Below, piece by piece: positions 34,672 through 59,275 of a DNA stretch of 64,000 bases. The notes under the pieces are model-generated. The model made no database searches. It had not been told where the DNA came from and saw nothing but the letters and a program-made list of their open reading frames with translations. The position numbers and the translations under genes were made by a program. The stretch spans positions 3,057,643 to 3,121,642 of the forward strand of contig CM094669.1 in assembly GCA_044231675.1 (NCBI GenBank). The letters run 5' to 3'. Source of the stretch: Synchiropus picturatus. Taxonomy: Eukaryota. Position 1 is the first letter of the stretch; each line of letters begins with the position of its first letter.

Positions 34672-35539
34672 TCATACAAAAGGTCCGCCTGACATGCTAA
34701 GAAAGGTAGGTCCAGCCATGCTGAGTGCTGGGGGCCTGGCGGAGCCGCTCCAGTGCACCTTCATGTGGTGACGCAGGTTGGACCGCGAGGAGAAGCGCTT
34801 GTCGCACTGCGGGCAGGTGAAGGGCTTCTCTTTGGTATGGATGCGGCGATGGCAGATCAGCTGCGTGGAGACCCGGAAGGACTTCCCACATTCTGGACAC
34901 TGGTAGCGTTTCGGCTCTGTATGGATGCGACGGTGGTTCTTCAGGGACATCAGGTTGGGGAACTCCTTCTGACAGGTGCTGCAGAAGAACGTGCCGGTCT
35001 TGTGGCTGTTCTTGTGGTTGAGCAGGGAGCTGGCGTGGCGGTAGGTCCGGCCGCACTGGTCGCACACGTGGGACTTCACCACTGCCTCGCGCCCTCCTTT
35101 GACCAAATCTCCAGGCTGGAGTCCCTGCTCCTGCATCAAAGTGAGGTCCAAGCCTGAGCCCCAGCCCAGCTCGTGGGAGCTCCCTGACCGGGCCTGCAGG
35201 GCTCTGGGCTGCGGGGCCTCGCCGTGGCTGATTTCCATGTGAAGTCTGAAGCTCGCTTGTGTGGGAAACGAGCGCTGGCAGGAGCGGCACGTCAGCTCCC
35301 GCTGCTTCTGGTGCACCCGCCGATGGTTGTACAGCTGTGATGCCACACGGAAGGCCTTCCCGCAGTCGTGGCACCTGTGGCGCCGCGTCTCTGAGTGAAT
35401 CCGACGGTGGTTCTTGAGGGCGAGCAGGTTGGAGTAGGTCTTGAGGCACACGGCGCAGTGGTAGATGCCGACAGTGTGTGTGTTCTTGTGGTTGAGAAGG
35501 GAGCTGGCGTGGCGATAGGAGCGACCGCACTGGTCACAC
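34672..35539 (-). CDS. znf646: ZNF646-like gene, terminal coding exon: 6 C2H2 fingers of the C-x2-CGR(S/T)YRHASSLLNHK type. The RYT|CDQC finger is split by the intron.
   Basis: ORF 34672..35595. Acceptor ctctgcacag lies on the minus strand, and phase 2 matches the GTGAGT donor at 36095. Confidence 0.65.
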
Positions 35540-36095
35540 CTGTGCAGAGGCGACAGCAAGAGGGAAGCAACGTTAACACCTGAGGAGCAGACCACACCGG
35601 GATCAGATTCCGCTCGGTATCAGGACTTTTCATCTGGTACAGGTATATGATCTTGAATCCGGCTCAAGTTGAAGACATTTAAAACCAGCAGGGGGCGCAT
35701 CTCCTACTGACTGACACTGCACCCACCAGTCACATCCTCAACTGAGTTCAAGAGAGTTGAGGGTGTTATCCAGGTGTGCAGCGCAGCAGGTGACGGGTAC
35801 TGAACCCCCCCTGACCTGGACAAACAAGGGAGGAACAACAAACATGACACATCCTGTGCGTGCGTGCGTGTGTGTGAGTGTAATGCGGGCGGACGGGAAG
35901 CAAACAGGGAGGACTTATCTGATCTCGCCACTAATTCAATTTGTCCAAACTTCAGAAAAATCCGAATTCCGGCACGCGTATGGTCCCAAGGAAGCCGGAT
36001 TGGAGATCATATACCTGGAATAGACATGAGACTAAATTGATCTCCTCCAGTTTGACATTGTCCAAAAGAAGAAAAAAAAAAGGGAGTGGACTCAC

Positions 36096-37202
36096 GTGTA
36101 CCGACACTCATCGCCCTCTACTGGACCAGCTGGAGTTTTTCTCCTCACCTCCATGCCCACCTGATTCTCCCCACAGCGGTGGCGGGCCAAGCCAGACCTG
36201 CCCTGGAAGCTCTTCCCACAGGTGGGGCAGCCGAAGGGTGTGGCACCCTCTTCGTGCACCTTCTGGTGATTTCGTAGGAATCGGGCGAGGCGGAAGGCTT
36301 TGCCGCAGGTGTGGCATATGTGCTTCTTACGCTGCGTGTGGATGCGCATGTGGTTGCGCAGCGCCATGTAGTTGGTGTACGGTTTATCGCAGAAGTTACA
36401 GCGGAAGTTTCCAGTCTTGTGTGTGTGTTTGTGGTTCAAGAGCGAGCTAGCATGTTTGTAGGCACAGCTGCAGAGATCGCAGGCGTAGGGACGCTCATCT
36501 GAGTCCAGGTCCACTGAGCTCCGCTCCATGTTAATGGTGGTGGAGCTGCTGGTGGTTGAGGACGACGGCAGATGCTGTGCAGGGCAGTCATGACTGGCCA
36601 GTTCATCTGCTGTCGCAAAGCCTTCACAGCAACCGTCGCACTCGAAGTCCATCTGGGCCCCGGGACCCTGAGGCCCCTTGCAGAGGCCAGCTGTGGTGTG
36701 AGTGGCAAGCTGGCGCTGCGTGCGGAAGCCCTTCCCGCACTCTTGGCAGTTGTGCTTCTTTTGGGCAAAGTGCAGCCGCAGGTGGTTCTTCATGGCCAGC
36801 CGGTTGGGGTAGGTGGAGTTGCACACATTGCAGTGGTACTCACCTATTTTGTGCAGGTTCTTATGGTTGGCCAGGCTGCCAGCATGACGGTACGTCTTGC
36901 CACATTCCTCACAGGCGAAGGGTCGCCGGCCGGATTCCGCCGGGTCAAACTTCTGCGGTCTGGATGTGCCAGCAGAAGAGTAGGGTTTCTTGAACCCTTG
37001 CTGGTACTTGACGCCCATCATTGGACCCTTTGAGGACTCTCCCCTCATGGTTTGCATTTGCGACGGGCCGGGCTGCTGGAAGCGTGCGCCATTAGCGCCG
37101 GTCCGGACAAGACCTTTGGCACGGTGTTCCTCATGCAGCCGCAGATGGTTGATCAGTTGTTTCTGGATCTTGAAGGCTTTTCCACATTCTTCACATTTGT
37201 GC
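36096..37202 (-). CDS. znf646: ZNF646-like gene, middle coding exon (…HKCEECGKAFKIQKQLINHLRLHEE…CEECGKTYRHAGSLANHKNLH… multiple fingers).
   Basis: ORF 36092..37057 plus an in-frame upstream extension. Acceptor tttttctgcag is at 37203-37213 on the minus strand. The ORF's apparent stop codon is part of the GTGAGT donor. Confidence 0.65.
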
Positions 37203-37898
37203 CTGCAGAAAAACCCAAGCAGGTCAGTCCGGATGACCGGGCTATGTGGGCAGCCTGGCCAGGGAAAAACTGTGCTGAATTATGACAGAACGTAGCAGCT
37301 AGCTACCACCATCGTACACCAAGACTGAAGTCATACAAAAACAAGACCCCCCCCCCCCCCCCCCGAGATACCTGGTGACATTTACCCATTTGTCTCATCA
37401 CAAAATTATGGAGCACTTCCACTTCCACTCAGTCCAGCAGAGAAGTCCAGAATCTCAACACTGGACAGTCAATTGAGGTTTCCACCACGGACAAATATCT
37501 AAAAAGAAACTATCATCTGACGAAGAGTTAAGCGAAAATATATTTCTCACACTATGAATGGATTACTGCAAAACTGTTCACATGTCTAACAGCAACAAAT
37601 CAGTAACATGACTAAGGCAAGGACTTGAACGAGAAACCACATCACGGCCTCAACTGATTGCAGAACTGACTCTACAGTCATTTAAGATGCTCTTTGTGCT
37701 CAATTGTAAAACACATTCTCTTCATTCTCATCAGTCATCTCAGCACCTGGTACTTTGCTAGTTATTACATAATATCTTTTCCCAGTGACAGAACGTAAGG
37801 AGAATCTTTTTTTGGCTATTACGGCCCAGACCTGAGAAAATACCAGTTAAAAAAAGCAACACATGAAACCAGAAGGGATACGAATAGGAGAGGCTCAC

Positions 37899-40405
37899 CG
37901 TTTCAGGTCAAAGTGGGTCCTCTGGTGATTCTTGAGGGCCAGAAGGTTGTAGTAACGCTTCTGACATACAAGGCAGCGGAACACACCAGTCTTGTGGGAC
38001 TTCTTGTGGTTGAGGAGGGAGCAGGGGTGTCGATAGCCTCGGCCACACTGGTCACACTTGTGTGGTTTGTCACTCTGGTCCGCCATTTGCCTCCGCGAAT
38101 CTCCACTTAGATCACGGCTTCCTCCACCAATGCCCCCAATGACACCGTCTCCGGCGGACATGCCTTTGGAGCCATTCAGGTTCTGTTTGCCCACCGATTC
38201 CGCTCGGTTCTTGCCAGGACACAAGTGAGTGACCAGGTGGTGACGGTCAGCAAAGAACATCCCGCAGTCCACGCAGATGTGGCTCCGCCCATCCACCTTT
38301 TCACTGCCGTTCGTCGAGGCACCGCCGATGCTCTGCTGGCCATCCTGTCTCTGTGGTCCATGGACCAACTGGTGATTCAGAAGGTCTTGTTTCCTGGAGA
38401 AGCTCTGTCCGCATGTCGAGCAGATGATCCGCCACTCCTGTCCCTGGTTGGAGGGTCCTGGTGCGGTGGGGTTATTGGCATGACTGCGCAGATGGCTACG
38501 GAGCGCTCGAAGGCTGGCATAGTGGTTGCCACAAACAGAGCACTGGTAAACCTCCCCATCATCCTCTTCCTTGTCGTTGCTGCTGCCCATCCTCTTGGCT
38601 CCACTCTGAGAAAACTGCCGCTGGCTGGTGCCCTCTTTCAGACTGCTGGAATTGCTTGCCGGAAGAGGGGAAGGGCCAGAGCCGTGGTAGTTCATGTTTC
38701 CTATGAATCCGTTGGACATGTTTCCCTGCTGTTGCCCCCGGCGAGGGCACAAGTGGGACTTTATCCCAGACACGTCAGAGTACATCTCACCACAGTCGGC
38801 ACACATGTGTCGGTCAGCCTGCCGATGAGCCGAATTGCTCTGGGAAAGCGAACTGCCGTCGAAACGATCATGGAACTCAAGGGAATCCAACCCACTGCTG
38901 TGGCCTCCATCTTGACTAAAGTGAGAGTCGCCCATATTTCCCTGCAGAGAGATGGGTGTCGCAGCACCGTTGCCTTCTTGCACATAGTTCTGCTGGGAGT
39001 CCATAGTCAAAGGTTCTGGTGAGAGCCAATCATTACTCTCATTCATTGAGGAGTTGCCGTGGCGTCCCTTGTGGCTACGAAGATGGCTGTGCAGTGCGGC
39101 AAGGTGTGGGTACTGCTTGCAGCAAATGGTGCACTGGAAGTGGCCTGTCTGGTGGCAGCGTTTGTGGTTCACCAGGCTGCCGGCGTGCCTGTAACTTTTG
39201 CCACATTCTCCACACTTAAAGCGCCTCTCCCCGTCGTCTGGAGAGTTGGTTTGCTGTACACGCCCACCAGAGGGGGACGACACAGAACCCTGGGAACCAG
39301 TGCTGAGTGAGTCCGAGTTAAGGATTGAATTTTCTTGGCTATGAGCCGCAGGATGAGGGTCATGAGTCAGGTAGTGGACCTTCAAGCTCTCGAGATCCGG
39401 GTGCCCAGCCCCACAATACGCACACGTGTAGATGGGGTTGTTGACAGCTGGGCCCATGATTGGATCATATGGACCTCGCTTGTCACTGGACAATGGCGGG
39501 AGAGGCAGGGGGTCACCCAGAGTTGGGGTGTAGGTGGGAGATCGAACAGTGCTTAGATTATGAGGCATGATGCCAGGGAAGCTGCGAGGAAGCCCCAGAG
39601 AAGGCGATGCAGAGTTGTGAAGGAGGATGTGGTCCTGGAATTCCGCCTTGCTGGGCAGTGCAATTTGGCAGAGGTGGCAGAAACATGAGGTGGCGTCGTT
39701 TGCTGGAGCCGACTGTGTGCTGCTGCCACCACTGCTCACCATGGAGGCTCCAGGCGCCTTGTACTTTGAGTGGGTTCTCTCGTGGCTGTTGAGTGACGCC
39801 AGGTTGCTGAACTGTTTTGAACAGACAGAACACTTAAAAGTCCCTTGCTGGTGACACTTCTTGTGATTTACCAGGCTACCGTGGTGGCGGTAGGTTCGGT
39901 CACACAGGTCACACTTAAAAGGTCTGTCCCACGCGTCGTCTGATCCTTGGGAGTTTTTCTTTGAGGTGTCAACCGACTGGTGGTCTTGTAAGACGCTGTT
40001 ATTCAAATGAGGGCGTCCGAACCCCTCAGCATGGTCCTGCGTGAGACTGTAGTCCCTCTCGTCGGTGGCGCCCTCTTCTGGTACTTCCTCAGTCTCCTCC
40101 TCTGGGTGGGCACTACTGGGGGACAGAGTATGGATACGTAGGTGGTTCTTCAGAGCGACTGCATTTGGAAGTGTGCGGGTACAAACTGGACACTGGAATG
40201 AACCCACCTCGTGAGATTTCTTGTGATTGGCAAGGCTGGCTGCGTGCTTGTAGATCCGCCCACACTGTTCGCACTCGAATCTTCCGCTGTCTTCCTGCTG
40301 GTAGTGTGCTTTCATGTGCTCTAGTAGACTTGGAGTACTTGGACAGACCATATCACACTGTTTACAGGGGACTCCCTTCGCTCGACTCATATCATGCATT
40401 GCCAT
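37899..40405 (-). CDS. znf646: ZNF646-like gene, large first coding exon (MAMHDMSRAKGVPCKQCDMVC... about 835 aa, many paired fingers with CxxCGRxYRH(A/P)(G/A/C)SL(A/V/L)NHK(K/R)xH).
   Basis: ORF 37895..40438 (the tool starts at GTG; the first ATG is at 40405). The exon ends at donor CG|gtgagc at 37898. The finger signature is characteristic of ZNF646, and the human orthologue neighbours STX1B and FBXL19 on 16p11.2. Confidence 0.65.
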
Positions 40406-43299
40406 AGTACTCGGGCTGAGACTTGGGCTGGGAATCACAGTTCACAAGGACTGAGAGGTGAGGTGTCATGGGGGTGCCTTGGTTGTTTTCTACTGAAGAA
40501 CCGCCCGTCAAATTAAGGCCCACCATGAGAAGGTGAAAGATGGGCCACACCAGCCGAGGAGGATGTACTGCGGACAGAGAAAGAGAAGAAACTTGACCAA
40601 CGTGCTTGGCGTGCCGAGTGTCACAAACACATCTGAGCTTTTCATCGCCAGACATGAGAGCAGCAGAAGTTTTTCAGAGTTTTTATTTTATTAAAAAAAG
40701 CTGTCATTCCATTTCTCATGTTGATGGAAACATCAACGCAGTAACTTCTGAGTCTGGTTCTCTAAAGCTTTCTGCCACTGGCTGAAGTTGCAGAAATTGA
40801 GCTGGAAACTTGTTCCATTGTTAAAATTAATAAGCAACAACTATGTAAATATAATCCATACAGTAAAACATACAAGTCAGCGAGGGGGACGTAGCTCAGG
40901 AACAGCCAGTCTGTTTCACTGCATCAAGCATTTGTTACTGGTTGGATCAACCAGGTAACCTCATTATTGAAAAAAAGCAAGAGATCTACTGGCTCTGTTT
41001 AACTCATGCAAAGTTTACAAAAGAGTGTCAAGAAAGTGTTTAAACAAGATTGGTCTTTAATGGGTTTCATTCATAAACCAATTCATGGCACTACTGTGCT
41101 GCCTCCATCTCTGATTAAAGAATAAAACATCTCATTATTTGCATCATTTCATTATGGTCCTAAGATTCATATCCCGGCATATTTTAGATGAACGGAGACT
41201 TCTGACAGAAAACAATACAATATTTTAACTACAAAAACGCCTCACAACCTGTTGCCTTTCCTGAAGGTAAAAGGAGCAGCCGATGCTTCATCGCTAATAA
41301 CCAGAGCAGCAGCACAATCAGTGATCATGGAAACATAAACTGTGTCTGCGTCAAACAGGTGATGCATTGAAATGATTGAAAAAAAATCTAAGTAATAAAT
41401 GTTGATCTACATATGGAAGGGGTGCACATCCGAACCATGCGTGTACAACGTTGCAAACAGATGTTAGGTTTAGAGCATTATTTTGATACAGCCTGGGTGG
41501 CCGGAGGTTTTGAGGCTGCAAAACTGTTGGGTTTGTTTTTCTTCAGAATGAGCTCCCTGCCCTGTGGTCCATTGAGTCGGCCATGTTTTTGAATTGTGTC
41601 GACGCGTCATACAAGCTAGCACATACATGTAAGGAGCGAAGCTAGCAAGCACACGTGAATCTGAAAACTGTCCACATTGCCCGGGCTTCATCTCCAAGTC
41701 TCAATACCGGTAATACTGGCAATACCAGCACATCGCCCGGCTCGAGTCAGGTCAATAATTCATACAGCAACAGAAGCCACTCCGAATAAAATATTGACAC
41801 CTCAGAGAAATGTGATGCGGATTGAAGCCCTTTGAAAGGTGCGAGTGTCCCACTGCATTCCAGTCAGAACCAGCAGGATCCCTAACTTCAGAACCACGCT
41901 ACAGATCCCTGAGCTATAGTCCATGATACCGGACCACTTGTCAGGACAAGTGATGGCGCCAAGTTAACTGATATGGAACAAGTCCCTGCTTATTAAAAAA
42001 ACCCACATGGCAGTTCAAAGATCAAAGCCAACTTCAGCAGAACACAATTGACCCACGCCATTGATCAGAAATGAACCATGACGTGTCGCCGACTTCAACT
42101 GGCCAACCACAGACAAGCAATGGATAACCGTGCTCCCTAATATCGCCCAACAACATCATGCACATTCTATATAAGAAAGGGCCGAGGAGACTGTTCCTCC
42201 TCAAGAGACTAAGGTCTGAGTGTCTGTGGTGTGCAGCAGCATCACTAACACTGGGAGACGGGGGATGATAGCAAAGCTCTCATTCATGACTTGAACACCA
42301 CGGAGCAGCTCATTCTGTTGCAGATCATTACACCCATGACACCGCAGGTCTTTCCTTCCTGCTTCAATCAGACTTGACACTCAGCTGTTCAGTGAAGCAC
42401 CTGGAGTCTTCAGAGTGTTTCGACACAGTGTTGTGTGTTAAACAATAGTCGACAAATGTCAATATCTTTTGTCACTTTTCACTGCGCTTTGGAGCATGGT
42501 TTGCAGGGGAGAGTCAACTTTTTCATTTTTCATTTTGCCCTTATTTGGTTTAGTCACAAAAATCAGCTTTGAGTTTTGTCCCTCAGTTGCTTGCCTTTAA
42601 TCCGTTATGCTGTAATGTTGACATTCGTCCGAGTACCGGCTGACAGTAGGAAGACCAATCTTTAAAGGAATAAATATTTGAAGATGTTTACATGTCTGTT
42701 GAATTCAAATATTTGTGTGACGCTTCTGATTATTCCAAGTCAGCCGCGGCTAGACCCGAGCACGGTCATCGGGGCCGGGCTCCTGACCTTGGCCCGTCTC
42801 CCCTCAGGGGGATCCACCGGGACAAAGCTGCATCTTCCAGCACCGATGTGTCCCCCGTCACACCTGAGCGCAGTGACACTCCAGCCCGGCAGCAGCAGAG
42901 CGACCAAGCCTCGGCAATAAAACTCCAGCAGAGCCTCACGGGGGGACCGGACGGGTGTCGGTGGACCGGGTGACCACCAGACACTTTCACTCGCCGTCGG
43001 AAAATGGCCATTTTCCGCTAACTAGCCTCGCGTTCACCCCCAAACACTCGCCCTGCTGAACGCACACATCACAAAATGTTCCGGGGCTTTGAACCAGAGC
43101 TGTAAACCTGCATCACAACACTATAGCGTTTTCATTCATGCATTATTGGTCTTGTGTTTGAGAAAACGGGGAGCTAATGCTAACGTTAGCGGTTAGCACC
43201 ACCCCCCGCGATGACAGAAAAGGGGGTAGCCCGAGTAAAAAAAACACGAAAACAAACAACAGAGCGCAAGACGTTTATTCCTTGTTTTCCACAGTAACG

Positions 43300-43700: not shown

Positions 43701-44149
43701 ACGCACCATTCCAATTTCATGTTGCCAGATGGATGGAGTCCTGGTCCTAAATGCTCTTGAATTATTCCAACCAGAACTGAGGTGCATGTATTCCAGACTG
43801 GTAGGACGAGCGATCAGATGAATTACAAACCTCTCTTGCCTTGAAAATGATCATAAAAAAACTGGGGTCATTCGTTGAGAAGGAGGATCAAGAAGGGCAG
43901 AAAAGAAACCACGTCTGTCCAGGAATCAGAATCAGAAAACTTTATTAATCCCGAGGGAAATTTAATTTGTAACTTAACATGTTCTGTAAACAACAAAAAG
44001 ATAAATATGAAATGTAAAATATAAAATGCAAAATAGGAAGGCTATGTACATAGTGCTTAAAAGAGATTGAGATGAAGAAAGGGCCTCATGTGGCGCTCAG
44101 TCTTAGATATGACATGGGTACTCTCAGTCTATCAGTCTGTGTGCTTCTG

Positions 44150-44470
44150 TGTTGGACCATGAGCTGATGGGAAAACTCTGGGACAGACTGACATTACCAT
44201 CGGTTCTGTGTCCTGACAACAGTGAGACCATTCTTGTGTGGGGTCACTTCTCAGCGGAGGGACTGGAGCCTCAGAACGCAGTCATGAACAATGAATGGTA
44301 CCGAAACATCTACAGACTACTCTCATCCATCCAAGGACAGTTTGGTGACAAACAGAGCCTCTTCCAGACAGAACACAGTATGGGTACGTGGCCAGGAAAC
44401 TCCCCGGATCATCATCAGAGACATAAAAAAGGAGACACAATGGTGTGAGGTCACAAGTGTCGAGCAGTTC
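44150..44470 (+). mobile_element. Degraded Tc1/mariner-like transposase fragment (...ILVWGHFSAEGLEP...SLFQTEHS...).
   Basis: ORF 44149..44448 resembles the Tc1 transposase C-terminal catalytic region (VMVWGCFS...GxGxL...QQDNDP). It is interrupted and carries no intact DDE motif. Confidence 0.5.
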
Positions 44471-44514
44471 TTCCTTGCCTCCACTGGGCGACGCTGTCGC
44501 GTCAGAGGCCAAAG

Positions 44515-44530
44515 CCAGCCGGAAGTGACA
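44515..44530 (+). promoter_or_regulatory. thoc6: ETS/GABP-type CCGGAAGTG motif in the thoc6 core promoter.
   Basis: agccggaagtgacagg lies ~75 bp upstream of the thoc6 ATG, consistent with a TATA-less housekeeping promoter. Confidence 0.45.
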
Positions 44531-44596
44531 GGGGAAACTTCCTCCCAGTATTTCGGATCAGAACCGCGGCTGCTCGTTGCGGGACCTGAGCTCATA

Positions 44597-44659
44597 ATGG
44601 GACCAGTAGAGGTAACACTCGCGTCAGAACCGCGGGGATTTTGTACTGTCTTCTCACGT
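44597..44659 (+). CDS. thoc6: thoc6 exon 1 (MGPVEVTLASEPRGFCTVFSR).
   Basis: ATG at 44597. Donor gtgagc at 44660. The exon joins in frame to exon 2, giving ...[11 protein letters not shown], which matches human THOC6 ...RLHMTIFSQS. Confidence 0.75.
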
Positions 44660-44780
44660 GTGAGCGGTTGAAGCGGGGCGTCTTTGAGTTCCGTGTGTGG
44701 CGGGTCGAGCTGCCTGTGTTTCTATGAGAGGTGATTCACGGACACAGTTCTCCTCCAGTCTTGGTTGTCCTCTGTCTGCA

Positions 44781-44872
44781 GCACCTGCACATGTCCATCT
44801 TCTCTCAGAGCTTCTCACCGTGTGGAAAATTCCTTGCTGCGGGAAACAACTACGGAGAGATCGCAATATTCA
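44781..44872 (+). CDS. thoc6: thoc6 exon 2 ([30 protein letters not shown]).
   Basis: Matches human THOC6 [29 protein letters not shown]. Confidence 0.9.
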
Positions 44873-44940
44873 GGTGAAGATGACGGAGGTGATGACGGAC
44901 GCGGCGACAGCCATCATGAACCGCTTCTGTCTCCTCTCAG

Positions 44941-45005
44941 TCTCTCCGCAGCTCTGAGTCCTGAAGCGACTGAGTCGAACCTGAAACCGTTTCTCACCTT
45001 CTCGG
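44941..45005 (+). CDS. thoc6: thoc6 exon 3 (SLSAALSPEATESNLKPFLTFS).
   Basis: Matches human [22 protein letters not shown]. Confidence 0.85.
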
Positions 45006-45069
45006 GTGAGTCCTCAGTCTGTGTGTTGACTATTGTGCAGTGATGTAAACTGGAAATGGCCGGTCCTAG

Positions 45070-45173
45070 CCCACGATGGACCGGTCTACTGTCTTCTCTC
45101 CACGGAGTCGCAGCTGCTGAGTTCTGGAAACGGAGAGATCCGAGCATGGACCTGGAGCGAGCTCATCAAAAAG
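45070..45173 (+). CDS. thoc6: thoc6 exon 4 ([35 protein letters not shown]).
   Basis: Matches human [35 protein letters not shown]. Uses a TAG acceptor at 45067-45069. Confidence 0.85.
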
Positions 45174-45237
45174 GTACCGACCTCCGGTGCAGCCTCCTAA
45201 AGTCCTGCACCGCAAACATTCTGCTGTGTCTGTGCAG

Positions 45238-45275
45238 ACGGTGAAGCCTGTTTGGACCAAGAGACCTGACTACAA
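45238..45275 (+). CDS. thoc6: thoc6 exon 5 (TVKPVWTKRPDY(K)).
   Basis: Matches human GCKELWRRQPPYR. Donor gtgaga at 45276. Confidence 0.75.
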
Positions 45276-45343
45276 GTGAGACCGACGCACTGTCTACATG
45301 CATTCATGCCTTTTTAAACGCTCTGGGACACCACTGTGTTCAG

Positions 45344-45392
45344 GTCGAGCTTGGAGATTCCAGAAATCAATGCCATGGTCATCTACCCTCGA
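45344..45392 (+). CDS. thoc6: thoc6 exon 6 (SSLEIPEINAMVIYPR).
   Basis: Matches human TSLEVPEINALLLVPK. Donor gtgaga at 45393. Confidence 0.8.
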
Positions 45393-45462
45393 GTGAGACC
45401 TGCGTTCTCAGCGGCAAAGGTTTCCTTATATGGCGCCGACTCACAATGAAACTTGTTGCCAG

Positions 45463-45534
45463 GACGACACGTTGGTGGTCGGAGGTGGGGACAACAACAT
45501 CCACGTGCTGGACATGCAACGTGGCTCTTTCAAG
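45463..45534 (+). CDS. thoc6: thoc6 exon 7 (DDTLVVGGGDNNIHVLDMQRGSFK).
   Basis: Matches human [25 protein letters not shown]. Confidence 0.85.
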
Positions 45535-45612
45535 GTCAGTACTTGTGGGCGGCTCCCTGGCCAGACCTGGGTCTTCTAAGCTGCCGTCTGCACTTCTCAG
45601 TCTGTCCTGCAG

Positions 45613-45703
45613 GGCCACGCTGACTATGTCCACTGCCTGAACGTGCGGCCGCAGGAGGCCCAGCTGCTGTCCGGGAGTGAGGATGGCAGTGTCAGAATCT
45701 GGG
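45613..45703 (+). CDS. thoc6: thoc6 exon 8: WD40 repeat (GHADYVHCLNVRPQEAQLLSGSEDGSVRIW).
   Basis: Matches human [30 protein letters not shown]. Confidence 0.9.
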
Positions 45704-45773
45704 GTTTGTCTGTTGCCATGGAGACCGTTTGTTGGCCCATCATCCTGCTTCAGTGTCATGTGATCATTTTCAG

Positions 45774-45823
45774 ACATGCGAACCAACCAGAGCGTCCACG
45801 TCGTCGAGGCTCACAAGTACGAG
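45774..45823 (+). CDS. thoc6: thoc6 exon 9 (DMRTNQSVHVVEAHKYE).
   Basis: Matches human DLRTAKEVQTIEVYKHEE. Confidence 0.8.
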
Positions 45824-45919
45824 GTGAGTTCACATGGCGAGTGCTGCTCTGGAGATCAAATTTGATCCTCACAACACATTTGGGGCTTCATATGGACAGT
45901 CTGACTTCCTGTTTCCCAG

Positions 45920-45982
45920 AGTTGTGCGCGGCCGCAGTTCGGAAAGTGGATCAGCTGTCTGACCAGCGACTGTGACTGGATG
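45920..45982 (+). CDS. thoc6: thoc6 exon 10 (SCARPQFGKWISCLTSDCDWM).
   Basis: Matches human [20 protein letters not shown]. Confidence 0.85.
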
Positions 45983-46041
45983 GTGAGTGAAGGAGCCTTT
46001 GTTGTTGGACCAGTCAGCGGCAGTGTCCGTGTCGGCCTCAG

Positions 46042-46152
46042 GTGTGTGGCGGGGGTCCGTCCCTGTCGGTGTGGCACCTCCGCTCCATGTCTCCCACATC
46101 TGTGTTCGACCTCCCCGGCTGTCAGCGGCGCGCTGCCTTCTACCAGGACATG
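46042..46152 (+). CDS. thoc6: thoc6 exon 11 (VCGGGPSLSVWHLRSMSPTSVFDLPGCQRRAAFYQDM).
   Basis: Matches human [37 protein letters not shown]. Confidence 0.9.
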
Positions 46153-46214
46153 GTGAGTGTTCCGCTTGTCGCCGCGGCTGCTGGTGATTGACAGTTCCCT
46201 GGTCCGCCTCTCAG

Positions 46215-46337
46215 ATTCTGGCGGTGGGCGACGGCGCCTACGTGTCTCACTGCCTGCTTGGCGGCGAGGTGAAAGCTCAGATTCCAGTGACACCGCAGAG
46301 TCTCAACACGCTGGAGCTGAACAGCACGGAGCTGCAG
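46215..46337 (+). CDS. thoc6: thoc6 exon 12 (ILAVGDGAYVSHCLLGGEVKAQIPVTPQSLNTLELNSTELQ).
   Basis: Matches human [38 protein letters not shown]. Confidence 0.85.
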
Positions 46338-46397
46338 GTAAGCTGGTGCTACCTGCTGGTGTCTGGGCTCGCTGCTGAAGTGTCGGTGTGTCCACAG

Positions 46398-46478
46398 GTG
46401 CTGACCGTCGCTGGGAGCAGCAGCCATATCGATGTCTTCACCAACCCCTCGTACAGAGCCTTCTCCCTGTCTTTCTGA
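46398..46478 (+). CDS. thoc6: thoc6 exon 13 ([26 protein letters not shown]).
   Basis: Matches the human THOC6 C-terminus [26 protein letters not shown]. Stop at 46476-46478. The thirteen exons total 333 aa. Confidence 0.9.
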   Translation: [26 protein letters not shown]

Positions 46479-46498
46479 CCTGTCAATCACCTCACCAC

Positions 46499-46504
46499 AA
46501 TAAA
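46499..46504 (+). terminator. thoc6: thoc6 AATAAA polyadenylation signal.
   Basis: Hexamer 21 bp after the stop codon. Confidence 0.65.
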
Positions 46505-46518
46505 AGCTTTTTTTTTAA

Positions 46519-46524
46519 CTTCAA
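46519..46524 (-). terminator. med15: med15 AATAAA polyadenylation signal on the minus strand (tttatt on the plus strand).
   Basis: Hexamer ~57 bp downstream of the med15 stop codon on the minus strand. Predicted cleavage sites put the two 3' UTRs about 20 bp into each other. Confidence 0.55.
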
Positions 46525-46580
46525 GTCTTTTATTTAACTGACAATACATCAAACGCACAAACGGGGAGTGGGGCGTGGCC

Positions 46581-46717
46581 TCAGGCAGCCGACAGACAGG
46601 CCTGCCTCACGCTGCGGACCCAGGTGTTCAGGACCTCAGTCAGCGAGTGCTTGTTGGGCAGCTGCAGCAGTTTGGACGCCATGTTGTCATGAACCGTCTG
46701 CAGGAAACCATTTGCAC
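46581..46717 (-). CDS. med15: med15 terminal coding exon (...ANGFLQTVHDNMASKLLQLPNKHSLTEVLNTWVRSVRQACLSAA*). The acceptor is either at 46718-46723 or 46698-46703.
   Basis: In-frame translation of the reverse strand. Stop TGA at 46583-46581. Confidence 0.6.
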
Positions 46718-49174
46718 CTGCAGCACATGAAAGGTCAGGTGACCGTGAGGTCATGAGGTCAAGGGCACCACAGGCAACTCACTGTAGTCATCCGTCTCGT
46801 GGTTCCAGTGGGGACTCTGGTCCGGGTAGTCAGCCGGGATGCTGAGCTGCAGTGGCGGGACGCTGGGCAGGTCCCGGTCATCTGAAACACACGGATGCGG
46901 TTCTCCATCTGTGCGAGCGCTCAGTCCCACCCAGGATAGAAACCACTTCTGGACCCACCTAACTTGCACAGCAGATGCACTGCTCCAGTGTTGCTGCAGT
47001 GCGACGGGTCCAGGTTGACCAGGAACTTGACGTCCAGACGCGCCACTTCTCCCTGCAGCACGTTAGGAATCGTCTGACGCTCGTCTTCCTCCAGTTTCCT
47101 CTTTCGGCCTGTGACACTGGGACCGCTGAAAGCAAACCCCACATTAACGTGGTCCAGCGTGTGGGTGTGTGTGTAGTCATTACGTGATTGGCGGCCCATG
47201 AATGGCGCTCATGGCAGGCGAGAAGGTCCTGAAGAGCGAGTGGTTGAAGACCGGAGAGCGGATGTTGGCCATGACGGCGTCCAACAGCGGCTGACAGAGG
47301 TACTGCTGCTTGGGTACCGGCAGGGGAGGAGGGGTGGGCTGCGGAGAGAGCCAGCGTTACCATGGTGACCAATCACTCTCACTCAAGCGACCCCTGCTGG
47401 AGAGCAGAGGAGGTGCACCTACCACTGCCATGTCGTTTTTCAACTTCTCCAGAGCAATCTCACACTTCTGCAGAGTCTTCAGAGGACACCTGACACGACG
47501 GAGAACAGAAGTGAGTTTACACCCATTGCAACTAGTATAATTTCAAACTCAACCTCAAACTTCATTACACCTATAGCAGCAGGAATGTCATGCTGATAAT
47601 AGACTCCACCTACAGACCCATGGGCCAACACTGCGAGTGTAACACACCCACTGAACAACACTTGACTCCGTGAAGCCTGGTCGTGATGGCCTCTTTAACA
47701 CGAGAAATGGATGAGGTGACCCAAAATGCATTTCATACTATTAAAATAGTCACAACATATGGTTGTCCAATAAAGACAGTACAGAGCCTTCACTGGTCAA
47801 ACTCTAAACTATCAGTCTCAATGCAACGTGTGACAGATGTCGCCTGATTTTTGCTACTCTGTTCCGCACGTTTAACTCATGTTAAAAACACACTGAATTC
47901 TGTGACTCGATATTCAAGACATTTTCAAAAACATTTGGGAACCCAAGCCTCACCTCACCTCACCTCACCCCCGAAAAAAATAAAAAAATAGAAGCAACAC
48001 AAATACGTTACTCAAAAAAACCAAAAAGTCACCTGATATTTGGATCCGTCAGAATGTTTAGAAGGCTCTTCATCTTGCTCAGATCTTTCTTCCTATCTGA
48101 AAACATGCACACATATTAATGACAAAATCCCACACACATACATACTTGTATCTCTATCCTTATGGGGAGCTCTCATTGACATAACCCCCATACTCCCCAG
48201 CCTCTCCCTTAACTTAACCATCCATAACACATGGCGAACCTGAACCAGAACCCAGTATTAATGACCAAGTTATTGTGACGTTTTCACCCTCAAAACTTGA
48301 CGTGGACCTGCCAAAATGTCCACACAAAGCAAAATGTGTCTTGTCAAAGATTGGTCCCCACAAGAATATTAACACATGTACAAACACACACACCTTCGTT
48401 CTTGTCGATCTTGTTGATCATGCGGCTCAGAGGCTCGATGTACTTGGAAAGCTGTTTGAGTTTCTCCATGTATTGTTGGTCCTCCAGGGACGAGCCCGAG
48501 GGGCTCAGGACTGACCCGGGATTTCCTGCACAGAACGTAGGGTTCAGGCTGCGGCGAACCCCTCTGGAGGAGACCACCAGCGGCTTACCAGGTGTGTTGA
48601 GCGGGCCTGGGGAGGGCACGCCATAGTTCTGCGGGGTCCGGGCGGTGATGGGGCTCTGTGCGGGCTGGGGGGACGGGCTCGGCTGGAAGCCTCCTGGCGA
48701 AGGGGCGGGGCCAGAGCTGTGGGAACAACACAACAGTGTTCACCTGGTTGAAGAGAAGGTGGCCCTTCATTACGGTCAACCTAACTACCTGACTGAGTTA
48801 GGCTGCGAGCCTGGAGGCTGCGGAGATGGTTGGGGGGGGTGGCGGCATCGAGGGCGTGGTCTGCACCGGCGAGGGCGATGACAGCATTTGGTGCTGCTGT
48901 TGCACCTGCGGTCATGACTGATTGAGAGTGGCCGCTTTGCAGAGTCAGCAATAATAACTGGTCGTACCTGCTGGGGGATGGGTGGAGCCCCCGGGGCAGA
49001 CGCGGCGCCAGTGTTCGGCATGGCGGGGCGGGGCATCCGGGCAGAAACATGCACATGGCGCACCATCTGACAGAAGAAGAGAACAGCACGTGGTCATAGT
49101 GTTTTGATCAGCCAGCAGAGTGTGGCTGAACATGCTCACCTGTCCAGGACCAGCAGCTGCACTGAGCTGGGCAG

Positions 49175-49206
<32 letters not shown>

Positions 49207-49457
49207 AGCGCTGCCCGGGCCTGAGCCTGTTAACACACACACACACACACACGTTATTCCAACCACAACATGATGGAGAAATGAAGGAGCAGAAGAGAGG
49301 AGGAGGAGGGACCTGCAGGTTGAGGTGCTGCTGCTGTTGCTGCTGACTGAGGGAAAGTATGGGAACATGTGGCGCAGCCGTCATTTGCTGCTGCTGCTGC
49401 TGAGAGTGAGGAGGCATCTGACCAGACTGTTGCTGCTGGACCAGGTGCTGGAGGGAC

Positions 49458-49490
<33 letters not shown>

Positions 49491-51025
49491 AGCTGGAGCT
49501 GGACCATCTGCTGCTGTTGCAGCCTGGACTGATGCATCTGTGGAGACACAACATGATCACCATCAGACAGAGTTTCCAAATAATCCGCATTGACCAGTCA
49601 AGTTGTCCTCATGAGGCAAACACTATATCTGGAAATGCTTTAACATAGATGCATCTATTCCAAGAATGGTGGCCAGGATCTTCAGAATTCTTGTACCTGG
49701 TTCTGCTGCTGCTGGTTCTGCAGTTGTTGATTCTGCAGCTGCTGGTTCTGCAGCTGTTGGTTCTGCAGTTGCTGGTTCTGCAGCTGCTGGTTGGGGTGAT
49801 GCTGCTGCATCTGCTGCTGTTGTTGTTGTGCTCTCATCTGTTGTTGGAATTGCTGCTGCTGTTGCTGCTGCTGGAAATGCTGGAACTGGATGGACTGCTG
49901 CGGGACCATTTGCTGCATGGGCATCTGACCCCCGACTGGAGAGAAAATAGGTTGAATGCTCAACCAACAGCCGTATAGTAACTGAAACACTCAACATGCT
50001 CAGGCAGCTGCAGTCAGTAGGGCGTGAAAACAGCAGAAAACCCACAGCGAGAAAAAAACACTCACTGGCTTGCGGGTTTCCAGATACCCCAGCCATGGCA
50101 TGCTGACCTATCTGCATTGGACCCATGGCCCCCATACCTCCCACAGGAGCACCGGTGGGGCGAGGCCCCATGCCGATGGCGCCTGGGCCCCCCCCGACCC
50201 CAGTCAGGTTAGTCAGGGCATTCATTGGATCTAGCAGAAGAGGGACAGACCAGGTTATCAGCCTCACACATGCAACGCTTCAGTCACCTGAGCACAGACA
50301 AGGAACACACACTGACCTGGACCACTGAGCGGCTTCTTGTCTGCAGGGACAGGTAGAGACCCATTAAACATCGGATGACATGTCAAAACAAATGAAAACT
50401 CAAGCTATAACTCACGGATGTCTCTAAAGTGGATGATGAGTCTTGCCACCAGAGATAAATACTCCTCCTGGAAAAACATAAAGAAGTCAGTCACCTCCCT
50501 CTGAAGCCACCGAGGTCAGTCACTCACTCTGGACTTGGCTTTCATGTAGACGTGGTTCTCCATCTCTGTACTGGATTTCGTGTGCGGGGTCCCAGCCTTC
50601 CTCATGGCTTCTTCGCTGGTTTGACAAAGAAGATCCCGAAATCGGGAGGTTTCAGTGAACATTTGATCACTTTATCTGACACCCTCACTTTTCTAAGCAG
50701 GACGCTTTACTGGCTGAACCGTGGAACCATACCGACTCCGTTAGGTTAAAAGACGAACAGTTTTAACAGACAAGTGCTTATAACAGTCAATATTTCTTTG
50801 CTCCGCGTCTGATAACTTGGTTTGCAACGCATTGATTCAATCAGAACTGACCAAATCAAAACGTTAGCCTAGCCGCAAAAGCTAACAGCAGCGGTGTTTA
50901 GCTTAGCTGCAGAAGCTACACTGCTACAACACAATGACTACATCAAATACTTCTCACATCTGTGCGACGACCTTCTGTCGGAACTGTGGACTCCGCCAGT
51001 CGCTATCAGCTCCCGGTACCTCCAT
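46581..51025 (-). CDS. med15: Mediator subunit 15 (med15), a multi-exon gene on the minus strand. Only the first, KIX, several polyQ, and last exons are anchored. The span is given from stop to ATG.
   Basis: Anchors: the N-terminus MEVPGADSDWRSPQFRQKVVAQ matches the MED15 KIX motif (TDWRSTAFRQKLVSQI). The KIX exon EEYLSLVARLIIHFRDI is present. Exons at 49136-50270 are extremely Q-rich. The exon at 48344-48733 has ...LSPSGSSLEDQQYMEKLKQLSKYIEPLSRMINKIDKNE. The C-terminus is ...NTWVRSVRQACLSAA*. Confidence 0.8.
49140..49990. repeat. med15: CAG/CAA (CTG/TTG) trinucleotide-rich tracts encoding the med15 polyglutamine regions.
   Basis: Long (ctgctg)n and (ttgctg)n runs on the plus strand. The minus-strand ORFs are dominated by Q. 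Confidence 0.9.
50416..50467 (-). CDS. med15: med15 KIX-domain exon (EEYLSLVARLIIHFRDI).
   Basis: Acceptor tttttccag and donor gtgagt on the minus strand. Confidence 0.7.
50958..51025 (-). CDS. med15: med15 exon 1 (MEVPGADSDWRSPQFRQKVVAQ + 2 nt).
   Basis: ATG at 51025-51023 on the minus strand. Donor AT|gtgaga on the minus strand at 50957. Confidence 0.75.
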
Positions 51026-54230: not shown

Positions 54231-54357
54231 TCAAGGGCATGGTGGGGCGTTGAGGCACGGTTGTGACTCAATTTCTTGACCGTTAGGAGGATCCCCACAG
54301 TCCGCGTTTGGTATCCCGCTGAATGTTGCTTTCAAATTTTGAATTCCTATGGTGGGA
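54231..54357 (-). CDS. cfp: cfp terminal exon (SPTIGIQNLKATFSGIPNADCGDPPNGQEIESQPCLNAPPCP*).
   Basis: Resembles the human properdin C-terminus ...NVTFWGRPLPRCEEL...KRPCLHVPAC. Stop at 54233-54231. Confidence 0.7.
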
Positions 54358-56451
54358 CTGGACACACACACACACAGAGTTAACAGAGTACTGACTGATG
54401 AATGACTGACAGATGTCACTGACCTATACTCAGAGTAGTCAGGGGAACATATCATCTGTCTCTTTCGAGTGGACTTCGGGCCACAGGTGGGTCTACACGA
54501 GGTCCAGGACCCCCAGCCCTCCCAGTTCCCCTTCACTGAAAAATCACACACCATATCAGCTTGTGTCTGTTTGTGTGAAATGACTCTCCACCACTCACAA
54601 TCACAACCGGTGACATCGTAGCACACTTGACTCTGGACCATGTCCTCTCCTTTACAAGCCAAACCACCATGACTCCGGTGCAAACATTTCCGGGTCTGCC
54701 ACTGCAGGCCACCAGTGGTGGAGCATGTGATGTCCTGGTCTTCGTCATGTGCATACGTACACGGACCCCAGGATGACCACGCTGACCACTGCCCATCCAC
54801 TAGAGGGAGACATGTCAGTCGCAAAATCTGTCTCGGTGTATGGAGGGGTGTCTACCTGGACAGGGGACTTTGGTATTGCAGGTTCTGCTGCGGCTGGCAT
54901 CACCAGGACACTGTCGTCCTCCGTGTTTGGGGGAGGGGTTTTTACATTTCCTGGATGACAGCTGAATCCCTAACCCACATGTAACTGGACAAGGCGTAAA
55001 GGAGGACCAGGACCCCCACGCCCCGTCCACTGATGAAACAGAGAGATGAGTACTGGGGGGGCTGTGGACACAGACATCAGGATGGGAGGAAGAGTACCTG
55101 AGCAGGGAGGCACATTAAGGCAAGGCTGCACTTCTGTGGGGTCACCATGGCAACTCCTACCAGGTGGGTGGGTGGAGGGGGCGGGGTTAGAGCAGAAGCG
55201 GTGGCGTCTCCTGGCCACAGCACCCCCTTGTGGGACGCAGGAGGCGGAGCACTCGCCCCAATTTGACCATCCAGACCAAAAGCCATCCACTGAAACCAAC
55301 ACACATTTTTACCGTCCCGTTTGTTTGTGCGCATGTGAGTGTGTTACCTGGACATTTGTTCTTGCAGACACTGGTTTTGGTAGTTGGACCTTCACAGACT
55401 TTCCCACCGTATTTCGGGGCAGGGCTATCACACTGTCGGATTGATAGCTGTAGTCCTTCCTCGCAGGTGGTTGAGCAGGGTCCAGGTGGAGACCACGCAC
55501 CCCAGTTGCCGTCCACTGAAGTGAAGGTTGTTGAGTTTCCATCTTCAGGATCAGAGCCATGTACAGCGACTCACCAGGACAGTTGTTGATCTCGGTGCAG
55601 AGCTGGACCTGCTCCGATTCTCCTTGACAGTCCTGTCCGGGGGGCACCGTGTGAGGGGATGGAGCGGGGTCAGAGCAGGAACGATGACGTCGTCTGACTG
55701 GGATCATGCTGTCAGTGATACAAGTGCCAGAACACTGAGACCAACTGGCCCATTCGGACCAGCTGCCATGGACTGTGAGAGAGACAGTGGTCAGACGGGA
55801 CACAGGCAAGCTGCAGCTTCCAGGCACACAGCTCACCTGGACAGGCCTTGTTTTGCTGACAAGGCTCCCTCTCATCTGATGGACCACTGCAGAGCGAGTG
55901 ACAGTGGGGAGGACCAGTACAAACCCTCGCTCTCCTCCTGACTCCCTGTACTCCACAGCTAACTGAACATGGTGACCAGGGGTTCCACGAGCCCCACCCC
56001 TTTGCTGCACACACACAAGTGTTTGAGGAGCTCGATTGAAGGGTGATGTGTGTAGGCTGTACCATCACAGCAGGTTCCCGTACACGGTTCCATCTGCAGC
56101 TTGATGTTTGGGCCATCACACTGGCCGACACCGAAACATGTCCGTGTCCTCTGCCTTACTCCGTCCCCGCACTGGACGCTACATGGCGACCAAGGAGTCC
56201 AGGAAGTCCACATGGGATAGCTGAGACACACCCACAGTCACAGACTATCATTGTGTGTTTTCGTGTGTGTGAATATATATACTGTTTTTACGGACCCACA
56301 GGACTGACACTCTTCCAGGGCTGAAAGCTGGAAGCCATTGTTGATGTTCAAACAACAGTCATCTTTGTCCACCTCACCCAGCCTGGCATCACACTGACCT
56401 GAGGTTCTGTTGACACTGGAGAAACAGAGCACGCTCACTTCAAACACACAC

Positions 56452-58365: not shown

Positions 58366-58824
58366 TGTCCAGCGCTCCAGCCACCACAGCCGTGTGCTAG
58401 CATGCTAGGTAGTGTTACCTGCTCACGCTCCCCGAGGGCGGGGGTACTTCTAGTCTTCCGATCCCATAAATATCCAGTCAATAGATCGATTAGACTGTTT
58501 GTGCAACGGGCTGGTTGTTAGCTTCATTATTTCAGCAGGCTGGCGAGTTGGCTAGCAGTTAGCTTTTGTGACGTCACTATGTTGGTCCGAGTTGTGTTGA
58601 TAATGCATCAATGGATGCGGTCAGGTCGATGATGCTGGTCGTTGAGTCCCATTCGCCACGATTAAATGTTCGGTCCTGTCGTGGGTAGCTGATCGCTGGC
58701 GCCGAGAGTTTTTGGTGATCATTGGTTGTTGATCAGTCACTGAATGTCAGCGATTCCTCCCATTCATGTTTGAAGTGTAGAACTATAATTGGCTGTTGTT
58801 TTCCTCTAGCTGACTCGTTGGGTG

Positions 58825-59210: not shown

Positions 59211-59275
59211 GTGAGTTTTGCCGTGGATCAGGTGCAAAGTCTTGACCGGAACTCAGACATTCCTTTTTTCTTCAG

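What the first reader, a model, noticed from the sequence alone, without database searches (positions are those of the whole stretch)
46398..46717. Convergent thoc6 (+) and med15 (-) genes with overlapping 3' ends
The two stop codons are only ~100 bp apart (thoc6 TGA at 46478, med15 TGA at 46581). The two AATAAA hexamers (46499-46504 on the plus strand, 46519-46524 on the minus strand) predict cleavage sites that put each 3' UTR about 20 bp into the other. This means obligate antisense overlap of two housekeeping transcripts, with potential for transcriptional interference or cis-natural-antisense regulation.
Basis: partly seen in the sequence, partly recalled or inferred. Interest (0 to 1): 0.55.

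Follow-up and report, generated by a model that had tools for sequence, protein, structure and literature searches.

The report
Convergent thoc6/med15 sharing one poly(A) region
Two ordinary housekeeping genes (thoc6 and med15) face each other tail-to-tail in a very compact fish genome, with stop codons 102 bases apart and poly(A) signals 24 bases apart, so their mRNAs probably touch or overlap by about a dozen bases; this looks like a by-product of genome compaction, not a special regulatory device.

Summary
The gene calls are correct. The + gene is thoc6 and the - gene is med15. Both align with the human proteins to the last residue. The stops are at 46476-46478 (+) and 46583..46581 (-), 102 nt apart.

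One coordinate is wrong. The minus-strand AATAAA lies at 46534..46529, not 46519-46524. These two hexamers are the only canonical signals available to either gene for over 1 kb. They face each other 24 nt apart, inside a perfect 8-bp inverted repeat (AATAAAAG/CTTTTATT).

The mature-mRNA overlap therefore equals d(+) + d(-) - 24. With cleavage at A residues 10-30 nt after each hexamer, that gives 2-32 nt, median 12. It is not "about 20 bp each", and the overlap is not strictly obligate. No RNA data could be reached.

The convergent adjacency also occurs in Seriola, Champsocephalus and Gambusia, but their stop-to-stop gaps are 923-2704 nt. It is absent within 10 kb in carp, Arapaima, Gymnothorax and Gadus. 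thoc6 introns here have a median of about 66 nt.

The tight apposition is best read as lineage-specific compaction of a percomorph gene pair. Tail-to-tail pairs with shared poly(A) regions are well known. Interest is low.

The parts
44597..46478 (+). thoc6 coding region: 13 exons, 321 aa. Introns are 59-170 nt, median about 66 nt.
   Evidence: Every intron has GT-AG and the reading frame is intact. The C-terminal 175 aa match human THOC6 7apk_F at E 1.7e-62, to the last residue. Pfam finds a WD40 repeat above its cut-off.
46398..46478 (+). Last thoc6 exon ([26 protein letters not shown]), with stop TGA at 46476-46478.
46479..46524 (+). Predicted thoc6 3'UTR, about 39-46 nt. Likely cleavage is after A 46517/46518 or after the CA at 46522-46523/46524.
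   Evidence: Inferred from the hexamer position and the 10-30 nt rule (PMC12243911). No RNA data.
46499..46504 (+). thoc6 poly(A) signal AATAAA, 20 nt after the stop.
   Evidence: It is the only canonical + signal between the stop and 47740.
46508..46516 (.). T9 run on +, A9 on -, in the middle of the spacer. This is the probable med15 cleavage zone. An encoded A-run would blur the exact site.
46499..46534 (.). 36-bp bidirectional poly(A) module AATAAAAG-N20-CTTTTATT, with perfect 8-bp inverted-repeat arms at 46499-46506 and 46527-46534.
   Evidence: I2, 100% complementary. The fold is not significant.
46529..46534 (-). med15 poly(A) signal AATAAA (TTTATT on +), 46 nt after the med15 stop.
   Evidence: It is the only canonical minus-strand signal in 44500-49000.
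46478..46507 (-). GU-rich downstream element of the med15 poly(A) site (GCUUUUAUUGUGGUGAGGUGAUUGACAGGU, G+U 0.77). It is the complement of the thoc6 3'UTR up to and including its hexamer.
46525..46554 (+). U-rich stretch downstream of the thoc6 cleavage zone (GUCUUUUAUUU...). It includes the complement of the med15 hexamer.
   Evidence: T 0.37 against 0.24 window-wide
46545..46548 (-). UGUA motif 11 nt upstream of the med15 hexamer. The thoc6 side has none.
46561..46580 (-). C-rich motif GGCCACGCCCCACUCCCCG at the start of the med15 3'UTR. It is conserved in one to three copies in three other percomorphs.
46581..46717 (-). Last med15 exon (..ANGFLQTVHDNMASKLLQLPNKHSLTEVLNTWVRSVRQACLSAA*), with stop at 46583..46581.
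   Evidence: Med15_C 123.7 bits, cut-off 23.9

Best explanation
thoc6 (+) and med15 (-) form a tail-to-tail gene pair. The adjacency arose within spiny-rayed (percomorph) fishes. In this compact genome the spacer has shrunk to 102 nt.

Each gene ends at its own canonical AAUAAA. The two hexamers face each other 24 nt apart within one 36-bp AT-rich module. Each gene's downstream U/GU-rich element is the complement of the other gene's hexamer and 3'UTR.

The mature mRNAs are predicted to have very short 3'UTRs, about 40-45 nt for thoc6 and about 65-75 nt for med15. They should abut or overlap by roughly 2-17 nt, with an extreme range from none to about 32-36 nt.

Shown: the gene identities, the stops, the hexamers and their uniqueness, the geometry, and the synteny and gap sizes in other fishes.

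Inferred: that these hexamers are the ones used, where cleavage occurs, and that the arrangement results from compaction and was not selected as a regulatory overlap. Pol II normally reads well past a poly(A) site (established knowledge). Nascent read-through from each gene must therefore enter the other gene, as it does at any close convergent pair.
For: - Identity and orthologous stops.
- Coordinates.
- The two hexamers are the only canonical signals available. There is no other minus-strand AATAAA or ATTAAA in 44500-49000, and the next + signal is 1.2 kb away inside med15.
- Co-occurrence of both hexamers in a 102-nt window is rare in this sequence, at 0.48%.
- The flanks fit poly(A) site anatomy. 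The element downstream of the med15 site has G+U 0.77. A U-rich stretch follows the thoc6 site. UGUA lies upstream of the med15 hexamer. The rules are from PMC12243911.
- Overlap arithmetic gives 2-32 nt, median 12.
- Compaction: thoc6 spans 1.9 kb with introns of 59-170 nt. The same gene spans 3.3-17 kb in the other fishes.
- The same convergent pair exists in Seriola (1805 nt between stops), Champsocephalus (2704 nt) and Gambusia (923 nt).
- The gap sequence cannot be aligned with the window apart from a short motif next to the med15 stop.
- Overlapping and closely apposed convergent genes are common and mostly lineage-specific in vertebrates, including Fugu (PMC2151771).
Against: - No transcript 3'-end data for this species could be reached. 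No same-species protein appeared in either homology search. The one fish RNA-seq contig retrieved ends 15 nt after the med15 stop.
- Cleavage positions are therefore predictions.
- The thoc6 site lacks UGUA, and its hexamer is followed directly by a U9 run, which is an unusual context.
- Absence of regulation cannot be shown from sequence alone.
Confidence: 0.75

Rival explanations
1. One reading: the overlap is a functional cis-natural-antisense or transcriptional-interference device. It would couple or oppose expression of thoc6 (mRNA export) and med15 (Mediator) through dsRNA formation or polymerase collision.
For: - The 3' ends are as close as they can be, and the two processing sites share one 36-bp module.
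- Read-through from each gene must invade the other (inference from established knowledge).
- In yeast, convergent genes with short intergenic distances form mRNA duplexes with post-transcriptional effects (PMC6993858, abstract seen).
- The convergent adjacency itself is kept in four percomorph lineages.
Against: - The predicted duplex is only about 2-17 nt and AU-rich. From my own knowledge, that is too short for Dicer-, ADAR- or PKR-type recognition.
- The tight spacing is not conserved. The gaps are 923-2704 nt in Seriola, Champsocephalus and Gambusia, and their stop-proximal signals would leave several hundred nt between the transcripts.
- The adjacency is absent in carp, Arapaima, Gymnothorax and Gadus.
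- In Arabidopsis, shared poly(A) regions were found not to depend on the antisense partner (PMC3032780).
Confidence: 0.08
2. The hexamers are used, but cleavage falls at the short end of the spacing range, or at other residues. The mRNAs then do not overlap at all and merely abut, with a gap of up to about 14 nt.
For: Overlap = d(+) + d(-) - 24, so any pair with d(+) + d(-) of 24 or less gives no overlap. The accepted range starts at 10 nt (PMC12243911; arithmetic).
Against: A residues, the preferred cleavage residues (my own knowledge), lie at d = 13, 14, 19, 20 on + and d = 13-21 on -. Every such combination gives at least 2 nt of overlap.
Confidence: 0.12
3. One or both genes mainly use other signals, such as non-canonical hexamers or distal sites. 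That would give much longer 3'UTRs and an overlap of hundreds of nucleotides covering the partner's coding exons.
For: - Alternative polyadenylation is widespread (PMC12243911).
- The + strand has AATACA at 46543, and ATTAAA/AATAAA at 47740, 47769 and 47979.
- The thoc6 site lacks UGUA.
Against: - Canonical AATAAA with a matching downstream element is present on both strands at the expected place.
- There is no canonical minus-strand signal anywhere in the thoc6 gene.
- The thoc6 hexamer lies close to the stop in all four fishes, at 20-115 nt.
Confidence: 0.05

Closest known systems
Tail-to-tail (convergent) overlapping gene pairs, or cis-natural antisense pairs, of vertebrates
   Same: Two protein-coding genes on opposite strands have facing 3' ends, and the transcripts are predicted to share sequence at their tips. 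Such overlaps are common: 4.8% of Fugu genes and 13% of human genes are in overlaps. Most are lineage-specific (PMC2151771). The close spacing here is likewise lineage-specific.
   Different: The predicted overlap is tiny, about a dozen nt, and contains only the spacer between the two hexamers. Typical catalogued pairs overlap by tens to thousands of nt of 3'UTR or exon. The overlap here is predicted, not observed.
Shared or bidirectional polyadenylation and termination regions of convergent genes (Arabidopsis pairs, PMC3032780; yeast bidirectional termination zones, bioRxiv 10.1101/2022.11.02.514956)
   Same: One short AT-rich region serves 3'-end formation on both strands. The signals of one strand are the complement of the flanking elements of the other.
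   Different: Those cases were mapped experimentally, and plants and yeast use different signal grammars. Here the system is the vertebrate AAUAAA plus U/GU-rich one, and it rests on sequence alone.
The SV40 early/late bidirectional poly(A) region (recalled from my own knowledge, not tested here)
   Same: Two AAUAAA signals on opposite strands sit within a short segment that ends convergent transcription units in a very compact genome.
   Different: SV40 is viral, and its early and late 3' ends overlap by more and have documented antisense consequences. Here the pair is cellular and no function has been shown.

Membership tests
THOC6 orthologue | Full-length similarity to THOC6, including the C-terminal end, and a WD40 beta-propeller | tested here: met
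   Human THOC6 7apk_F matches at E 1.7e-62, with query 1-175 aligned to 163-341 of 341. Fish THOC6 hits reach 77% identity. The Pfam WD40 repeat scores 72.9 bits against a cut-off of 27. The 13-exon model has an intact frame.
MED15 orthologue | Med15 central and C-terminal domains, with the alignment reaching the end of MED15 | tested here: met
   8t1i_J matches at E 4e-115, ending at 789 of 789. Med15_M scores 172 bits and Med15_C 123.7 bits, both above their cut-offs.
Canonical vertebrate poly(A) site (each strand) | AAUAAA or AUUAAA hexamer downstream of the stop | tested here: met
   + hexamer at 46499-46504 and - hexamer at 46534..46529
Canonical vertebrate poly(A) site (each strand) | U- or GU-rich element downstream of the cleavage zone | tested here: met
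   On the minus strand, 46507..46478 has G+U 0.77. On the plus strand, GUCUUUUAUUU starts at 46525, and U is 0.37 over 30 nt against 0.24 background.
Canonical vertebrate poly(A) site (each strand) | Upstream UGUA (auxiliary, not obligatory) | tested here: inconclusive
   Present for med15 at 46548..46545. Absent within 60 nt upstream of the thoc6 hexamer.
Canonical vertebrate poly(A) site (each strand) | Observed cleavage and polyadenylation 10-30 nt downstream | not testable with these tools
   No transcript data for this species.
Tail-to-tail cis-natural antisense pair | Genes on opposite strands with facing 3' ends | tested here: met
Tail-to-tail cis-natural antisense pair | Mature transcripts share complementary sequence | not testable with these tools
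   Only a prediction is available: 2-32 nt, median 12, with zero possible at minimal spacing.
Tail-to-tail cis-natural antisense pair | Overlap conserved in related species, as expected if functional | tested here: not met
   Stop-to-stop gaps are 1805, 2704 and 923 nt in Seriola, Champsocephalus and Gambusia. The stop-proximal signals leave several hundred nt between the ends. There is no adjacency in carp, Arapaima, Gymnothorax or Gadus.

The most novel reading that the evidence does not exclude
The 36-bp palindromic module (AATAAAAG-N20-CTTTTATT) may be a truly shared bidirectional 3'-processing site. Only one cleavage complex could then occupy it at a time, or polymerases would collide over it. 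Output of an mRNA-export factor (thoc6) and a Mediator subunit (med15) would become mechanically coupled in this compact genome. That would give a natural minimal system for studying how vertebrate Pol II terminates between convergent genes with essentially no spacer.
Probability: 0.06. Interest if true: 0.4.

Novelty: new member of a known kind. Interest (0 to 1): 0.14.

Why it matters
If the prediction holds, this locus is a neat extreme case of how far a vertebrate intergenic spacer can shrink. Two complete poly(A) sites are packed into 36 bp, and each strand's signal doubles as the other's flanking element. That is a useful illustration for annotators, because the 3'UTRs would be about 40-70 nt and the two genes could be wrongly merged in unstranded RNA-seq assemblies. 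It is also relevant to studies of termination in compact genomes. It does not open a new question, because convergent pairs with shared poly(A) regions are well documented in vertebrates, plants, yeasts and viruses.

Tried and rejected
2. Neither homology search returned a same-species protein. The best thoc6 hit was 77% identical. The best med15 hits were 78% at full query coverage and 86% over 87% of the query. The species stays unidentified and no transcript evidence was obtained.
3. The Logan RNA-seq contig for a percomorph med15 (L004) stops 15 nt after the stop codon, so it says nothing about 3' ends.
4. Four look-ups of THOC6 proteins found nothing on record: P0041, P0052, P0037 and P0029. 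All four are named isoform X2, and only the longest product of a gene is indexed, which probably explains the misses.
5. The tblastn output mixed three loci held in one file. It was redone per locus. The apparent thoc6 duplication in Seriola was that artefact.
6. An RNA structure or known RNA family in the gap was rejected. There is no Rfam match at E up to 1 in 44000-49000. Fold z-scores are -1.55 and -0.06. The 8-bp inverted repeat amounts to the two hexamers plus 2 nt.
7. Sequence conservation of the gap across percomorphs was rejected. Only chance 8-10-mers align, apart from the C-rich motif beside the med15 stop.
8. The other face-to-face AATAAA/TTTATT pairs in the window, at 24622/24655 and 30300/30311, were read. 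They were not pursued as convergent gene ends.

Full report
**Observation**

I read 45800-47300 and checked every coordinate by script.
- The + strand stop TGA is at 46476-46478.
- The minus-strand stop is at 46583..46581 (TCA on +).
- 102 nt separate the stops (46479-46580).
- The minus-strand AATAAA is at 46534..46529 (TTTATT on +).
- The only other signal-like hexamers in 46300-46800 are a + AATACA at 46543 and a minus AAAAAG at 46512.

**Gene identity**

The last five + strand exons (175 aa) match human THOC6 (7apk_F) at E 1.7e-62. The alignment runs to residue 341 of 341.

The minus-strand C-terminal exons match human MED15 (8t1i_J, 7emf_O) at E about 1e-114. That alignment runs to the final ...ACLSAA.

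I built a 13-exon, 321-aa thoc6 model at 44597-46478. Every intron has GT-AG and the frame is intact. Pfam finds a WD40 repeat in it, and finds Med15_M and Med15_C in the med15 C-terminus well above their cut-offs. Fish THOC6 and MED15 are the best database hits. Neither terminal exon nor stop is misassigned, so that refutation route is closed.

**Are the hexamers meaningful?**

- Between 44500 and 49000 the minus strand has exactly one canonical AATAAA or ATTAAA, the one in the gap.
- On the + strand the gap hexamer is the only one between the thoc6 stop and 47740, which lies deep inside med15.
- AATAAA occurs about 0.5 times per kb per strand in this window. Only 0.48% of 102-nt windows carry it on both strands.

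The flanks fit the textbook anatomy of AAUAAA 10-30 nt upstream of cleavage, UGUA upstream and U/GU-rich sequence downstream (PMC12243911).
- On the med15 side, UGUA sits at 46548, and a downstream stretch at 46507..46478 has G+U 0.77.
- On the thoc6 side, a U-rich run GUCUUUUAUUU starts at 46525, but there is no UGUA.

I conclude that these are very probably the functional signals. This is an inference, because no RNA data were available.

**Geometry**

The hexamers face each other 24 nt apart. They extend to a perfect 8-bp inverted repeat, AATAAAAG (46499-46506) and CTTTTATT (46527-46534). A T9/A9 run at 46508-46516 lies between them.

Each strand's downstream element is the complement of the other gene's hexamer. 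For med15 it is also the complement of the thoc6 3'UTR up to that hexamer.

The overlap of the mature mRNAs equals d(+) + d(-) - 24, where d is the distance from the 3' end of a hexamer to its cleavage site.
- A residues lie at d = 13, 14, 19, 20 and 28 on the + strand.
- A residues lie at d = 13-21 and 28 on the minus strand.
- All such combinations give an overlap of 2-32 nt, with a median of 12.
- Leaving out the two d = 28 positions, the range is 2-17 nt.
- If both sites cleaved at d of about 10-12, the mRNAs would not overlap at all.

The sound statement is that both 3'-processing sites share one 36-bp module, and the mRNAs abut or overlap by about a dozen AU-rich bases.

The module shows no significant RNA structure. 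Fold z-scores are -1.55 and -0.06. No Rfam family matches in 44000-49000.

**Conservation**

I fetched the thoc6 or med15 locus, with 10-kb flanks, from other fishes.

| Species (locus) | Arrangement | Stop-to-stop gap |
|---|---|---|
| This window | med15 convergent downstream of thoc6 | 102 nt |
| Seriola lalandi (L001) | med15 convergent downstream of thoc6 | 1805 nt |
| Champsocephalus esox (L005) | med15 convergent downstream of thoc6 | 2704 nt |
| Gambusia affinis (L006) | med15 convergent downstream of thoc6 | 923 nt |
| Common carp (L007) | thoc6 followed by an Arf-like gene, then an RWD/RING gene, same strand | no med15 within 10 kb |
| Arapaima (L002, L003) | thoc6 followed by an Arf-like gene, then an RWD/RING gene, same strand | no med15 within 10 kb |
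| Gymnothorax (L008) | no med15 found | no med15 within 10 kb |
| Gadus chalcogrammus (L009) | med15 followed by a same-strand Btz-domain gene | no thoc6 within 10 kb |

Sources are for the three convergent species, for carp, Arapaima and Gymnothorax, and for Gadus.

Among the fishes sampled, the adjacency appears only in percomorphs. This window shows the same gene order as Gambusia and Champsocephalus, with a large C2H2 zinc-finger gene on the minus strand, then thoc6, then med15.

In those three species the first thoc6 hexamer lies 80-115 nt after the stop. The first med15 hexamer lies 100-950 nt after its stop. If those signals are used, several hundred to about 2000 nt separate the transcripts. 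The gap sequences do not align with the window.

The convergent arrangement is therefore conserved, but the close apposition is not.

**Compaction**

thoc6 here spans 1.9 kb, with introns of 59-170 nt and a median of about 66 nt. The gene spans about 3.3 kb in Gambusia, 3.9 kb in Seriola, 13 kb in Champsocephalus and 17 kb in Gymnothorax. Shrinkage of the spacer from roughly 1-3 kb to 102 nt matches the general compaction of this genome.

**Mechanism and rivals**

*Best explanation (confidence 0.75).* This is an ordinary convergent pair whose spacer has been squeezed to the minimum that still holds two complete poly(A) sites. Each strand reuses the other's AT-rich signal as its own flanking element. 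Pol II reads past poly(A) sites (established knowledge). Nascent read-through must therefore enter the partner gene, as it does at any close convergent pair.

*Rival 1 (0.08): a selected antisense or interference device.* The predicted duplex is very short, the spacing is not conserved, and Arabidopsis shared poly(A) regions did not depend on the antisense partner (PMC3032780). Yeast work does show that short-spacer convergent genes can form mRNA duplexes (PMC6993858), so the idea cannot be excluded.

*Rival 2 (0.12): the mRNAs merely abut without overlapping.*

*Rival 3 (0.05): distal or non-canonical sites give long overlaps.*

**Comparison with what is known**

Overlapping and closely apposed convergent genes are common in vertebrates and are mostly lineage-specific. 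In Fugu, 4.8% of genes (993 of 20,796) take part in overlaps (PMC2151771).

Shared or bidirectional poly(A) and termination regions are described in Arabidopsis (PMC3032780) and yeast (bioRxiv 10.1101/2022.11.02.514956). From my own knowledge, the SV40 early/late region is another example.

This locus is a new instance of a known kind, and its overlap is predicted, not observed.

**Verdict**

Novelty is low and interest is about 0.14.

The decisive experiment is 3'-end or long-read RNA sequencing in this species. It should use a method robust to the genomic A9 run.

Noticed in passing
window 46561-46580 (-); L001 15640-15657, L005 about 25850-25904, L006 about 11550-11601: The med15 3'UTR starts, immediately after the stop, with a conserved C-rich motif GCC(C/A)CGCCC(C)AC. 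There is one copy in the window and in Seriola, and three tandem-like copies each in Champsocephalus and Gambusia. Gadus lacks it. It fits a CACCC/GC-box (KLF/Sp) at the DNA level, or a poly(C)-binding-protein type element at the RNA level. It is the only alignable part of the gap.
   Followed up: partly
L001 13853-13990; L005 23201-23345: In Seriola and Champsocephalus the thoc6 3'UTR begins with a long (CA)n microsatellite. It ends at a conserved signal context (..ATAATAAAATAT..CATTTTATACA) about 108-115 nt after the stop. The window species has neither the microsatellite nor that context. Seriola also has a minus-strand AATAAA at 13951, just 9 nt from the + one at 13960. A long med15 3'UTR isoform could therefore also end next to thoc6 there.
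   Followed up: partly
window 34675-40441 (-): Several long open segments on the minus strand carry many C2H2 zinc fingers, the largest being 848 aa without a stop. They lie upstream of thoc6, matching the large zf-C2H2 gene in the same position in Gambusia and Champsocephalus.
   Followed up: partly
window 49139-49990 (-): The poly-glutamine region of med15 is built from CAG/CAA repeats. It includes a 15-nt tandem unit repeated 6.4 times (QQLQN repeats) at 49697-49792.
   Followed up: no
window 54234-56064 (-); 58810-61003 (+); 8685-12261 (+): Other genes in the window are a properdin-like gene with thrombospondin type-1 repeats (TSP1_CFP_C), a gene with CXXC zinc-finger and F-box-like domains (kdm2-like), and at least two intermediate-filament (keratin-like) genes.
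   Followed up: no
window 24000-28000: This stretch has strongly negative GC skew and AT skew (GC skew down to -0.27, AT skew down to -0.29). It coincides with C/T-rich tandem repeats: a CTTCCTCCCTCA unit at 25969-26192 and a 21-nt unit repeated 14 times at 27578-27869.
   Followed up: no
window 24622-24660 and 30300-30316: These are the only other places in the window where a + AATAAA is followed within 60 nt by TTTATT (spacers of 27 and 5 nt). I did not check whether they mark other convergent 3' ends.
   Followed up: no
L002/L003 and L007 (Arapaima, carp); L009 (Gadus): Outside percomorphs, thoc6 is followed on the same strand by an Arf-like GTPase gene and an RWD/RING gene, then a MYST acetyltransferase gene in Arapaima. 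Gadus med15 is followed by a Btz-domain (casc3-like) gene. The thoc6/med15 adjacency therefore arose by rearrangement within acanthomorph fishes.
   Followed up: partly
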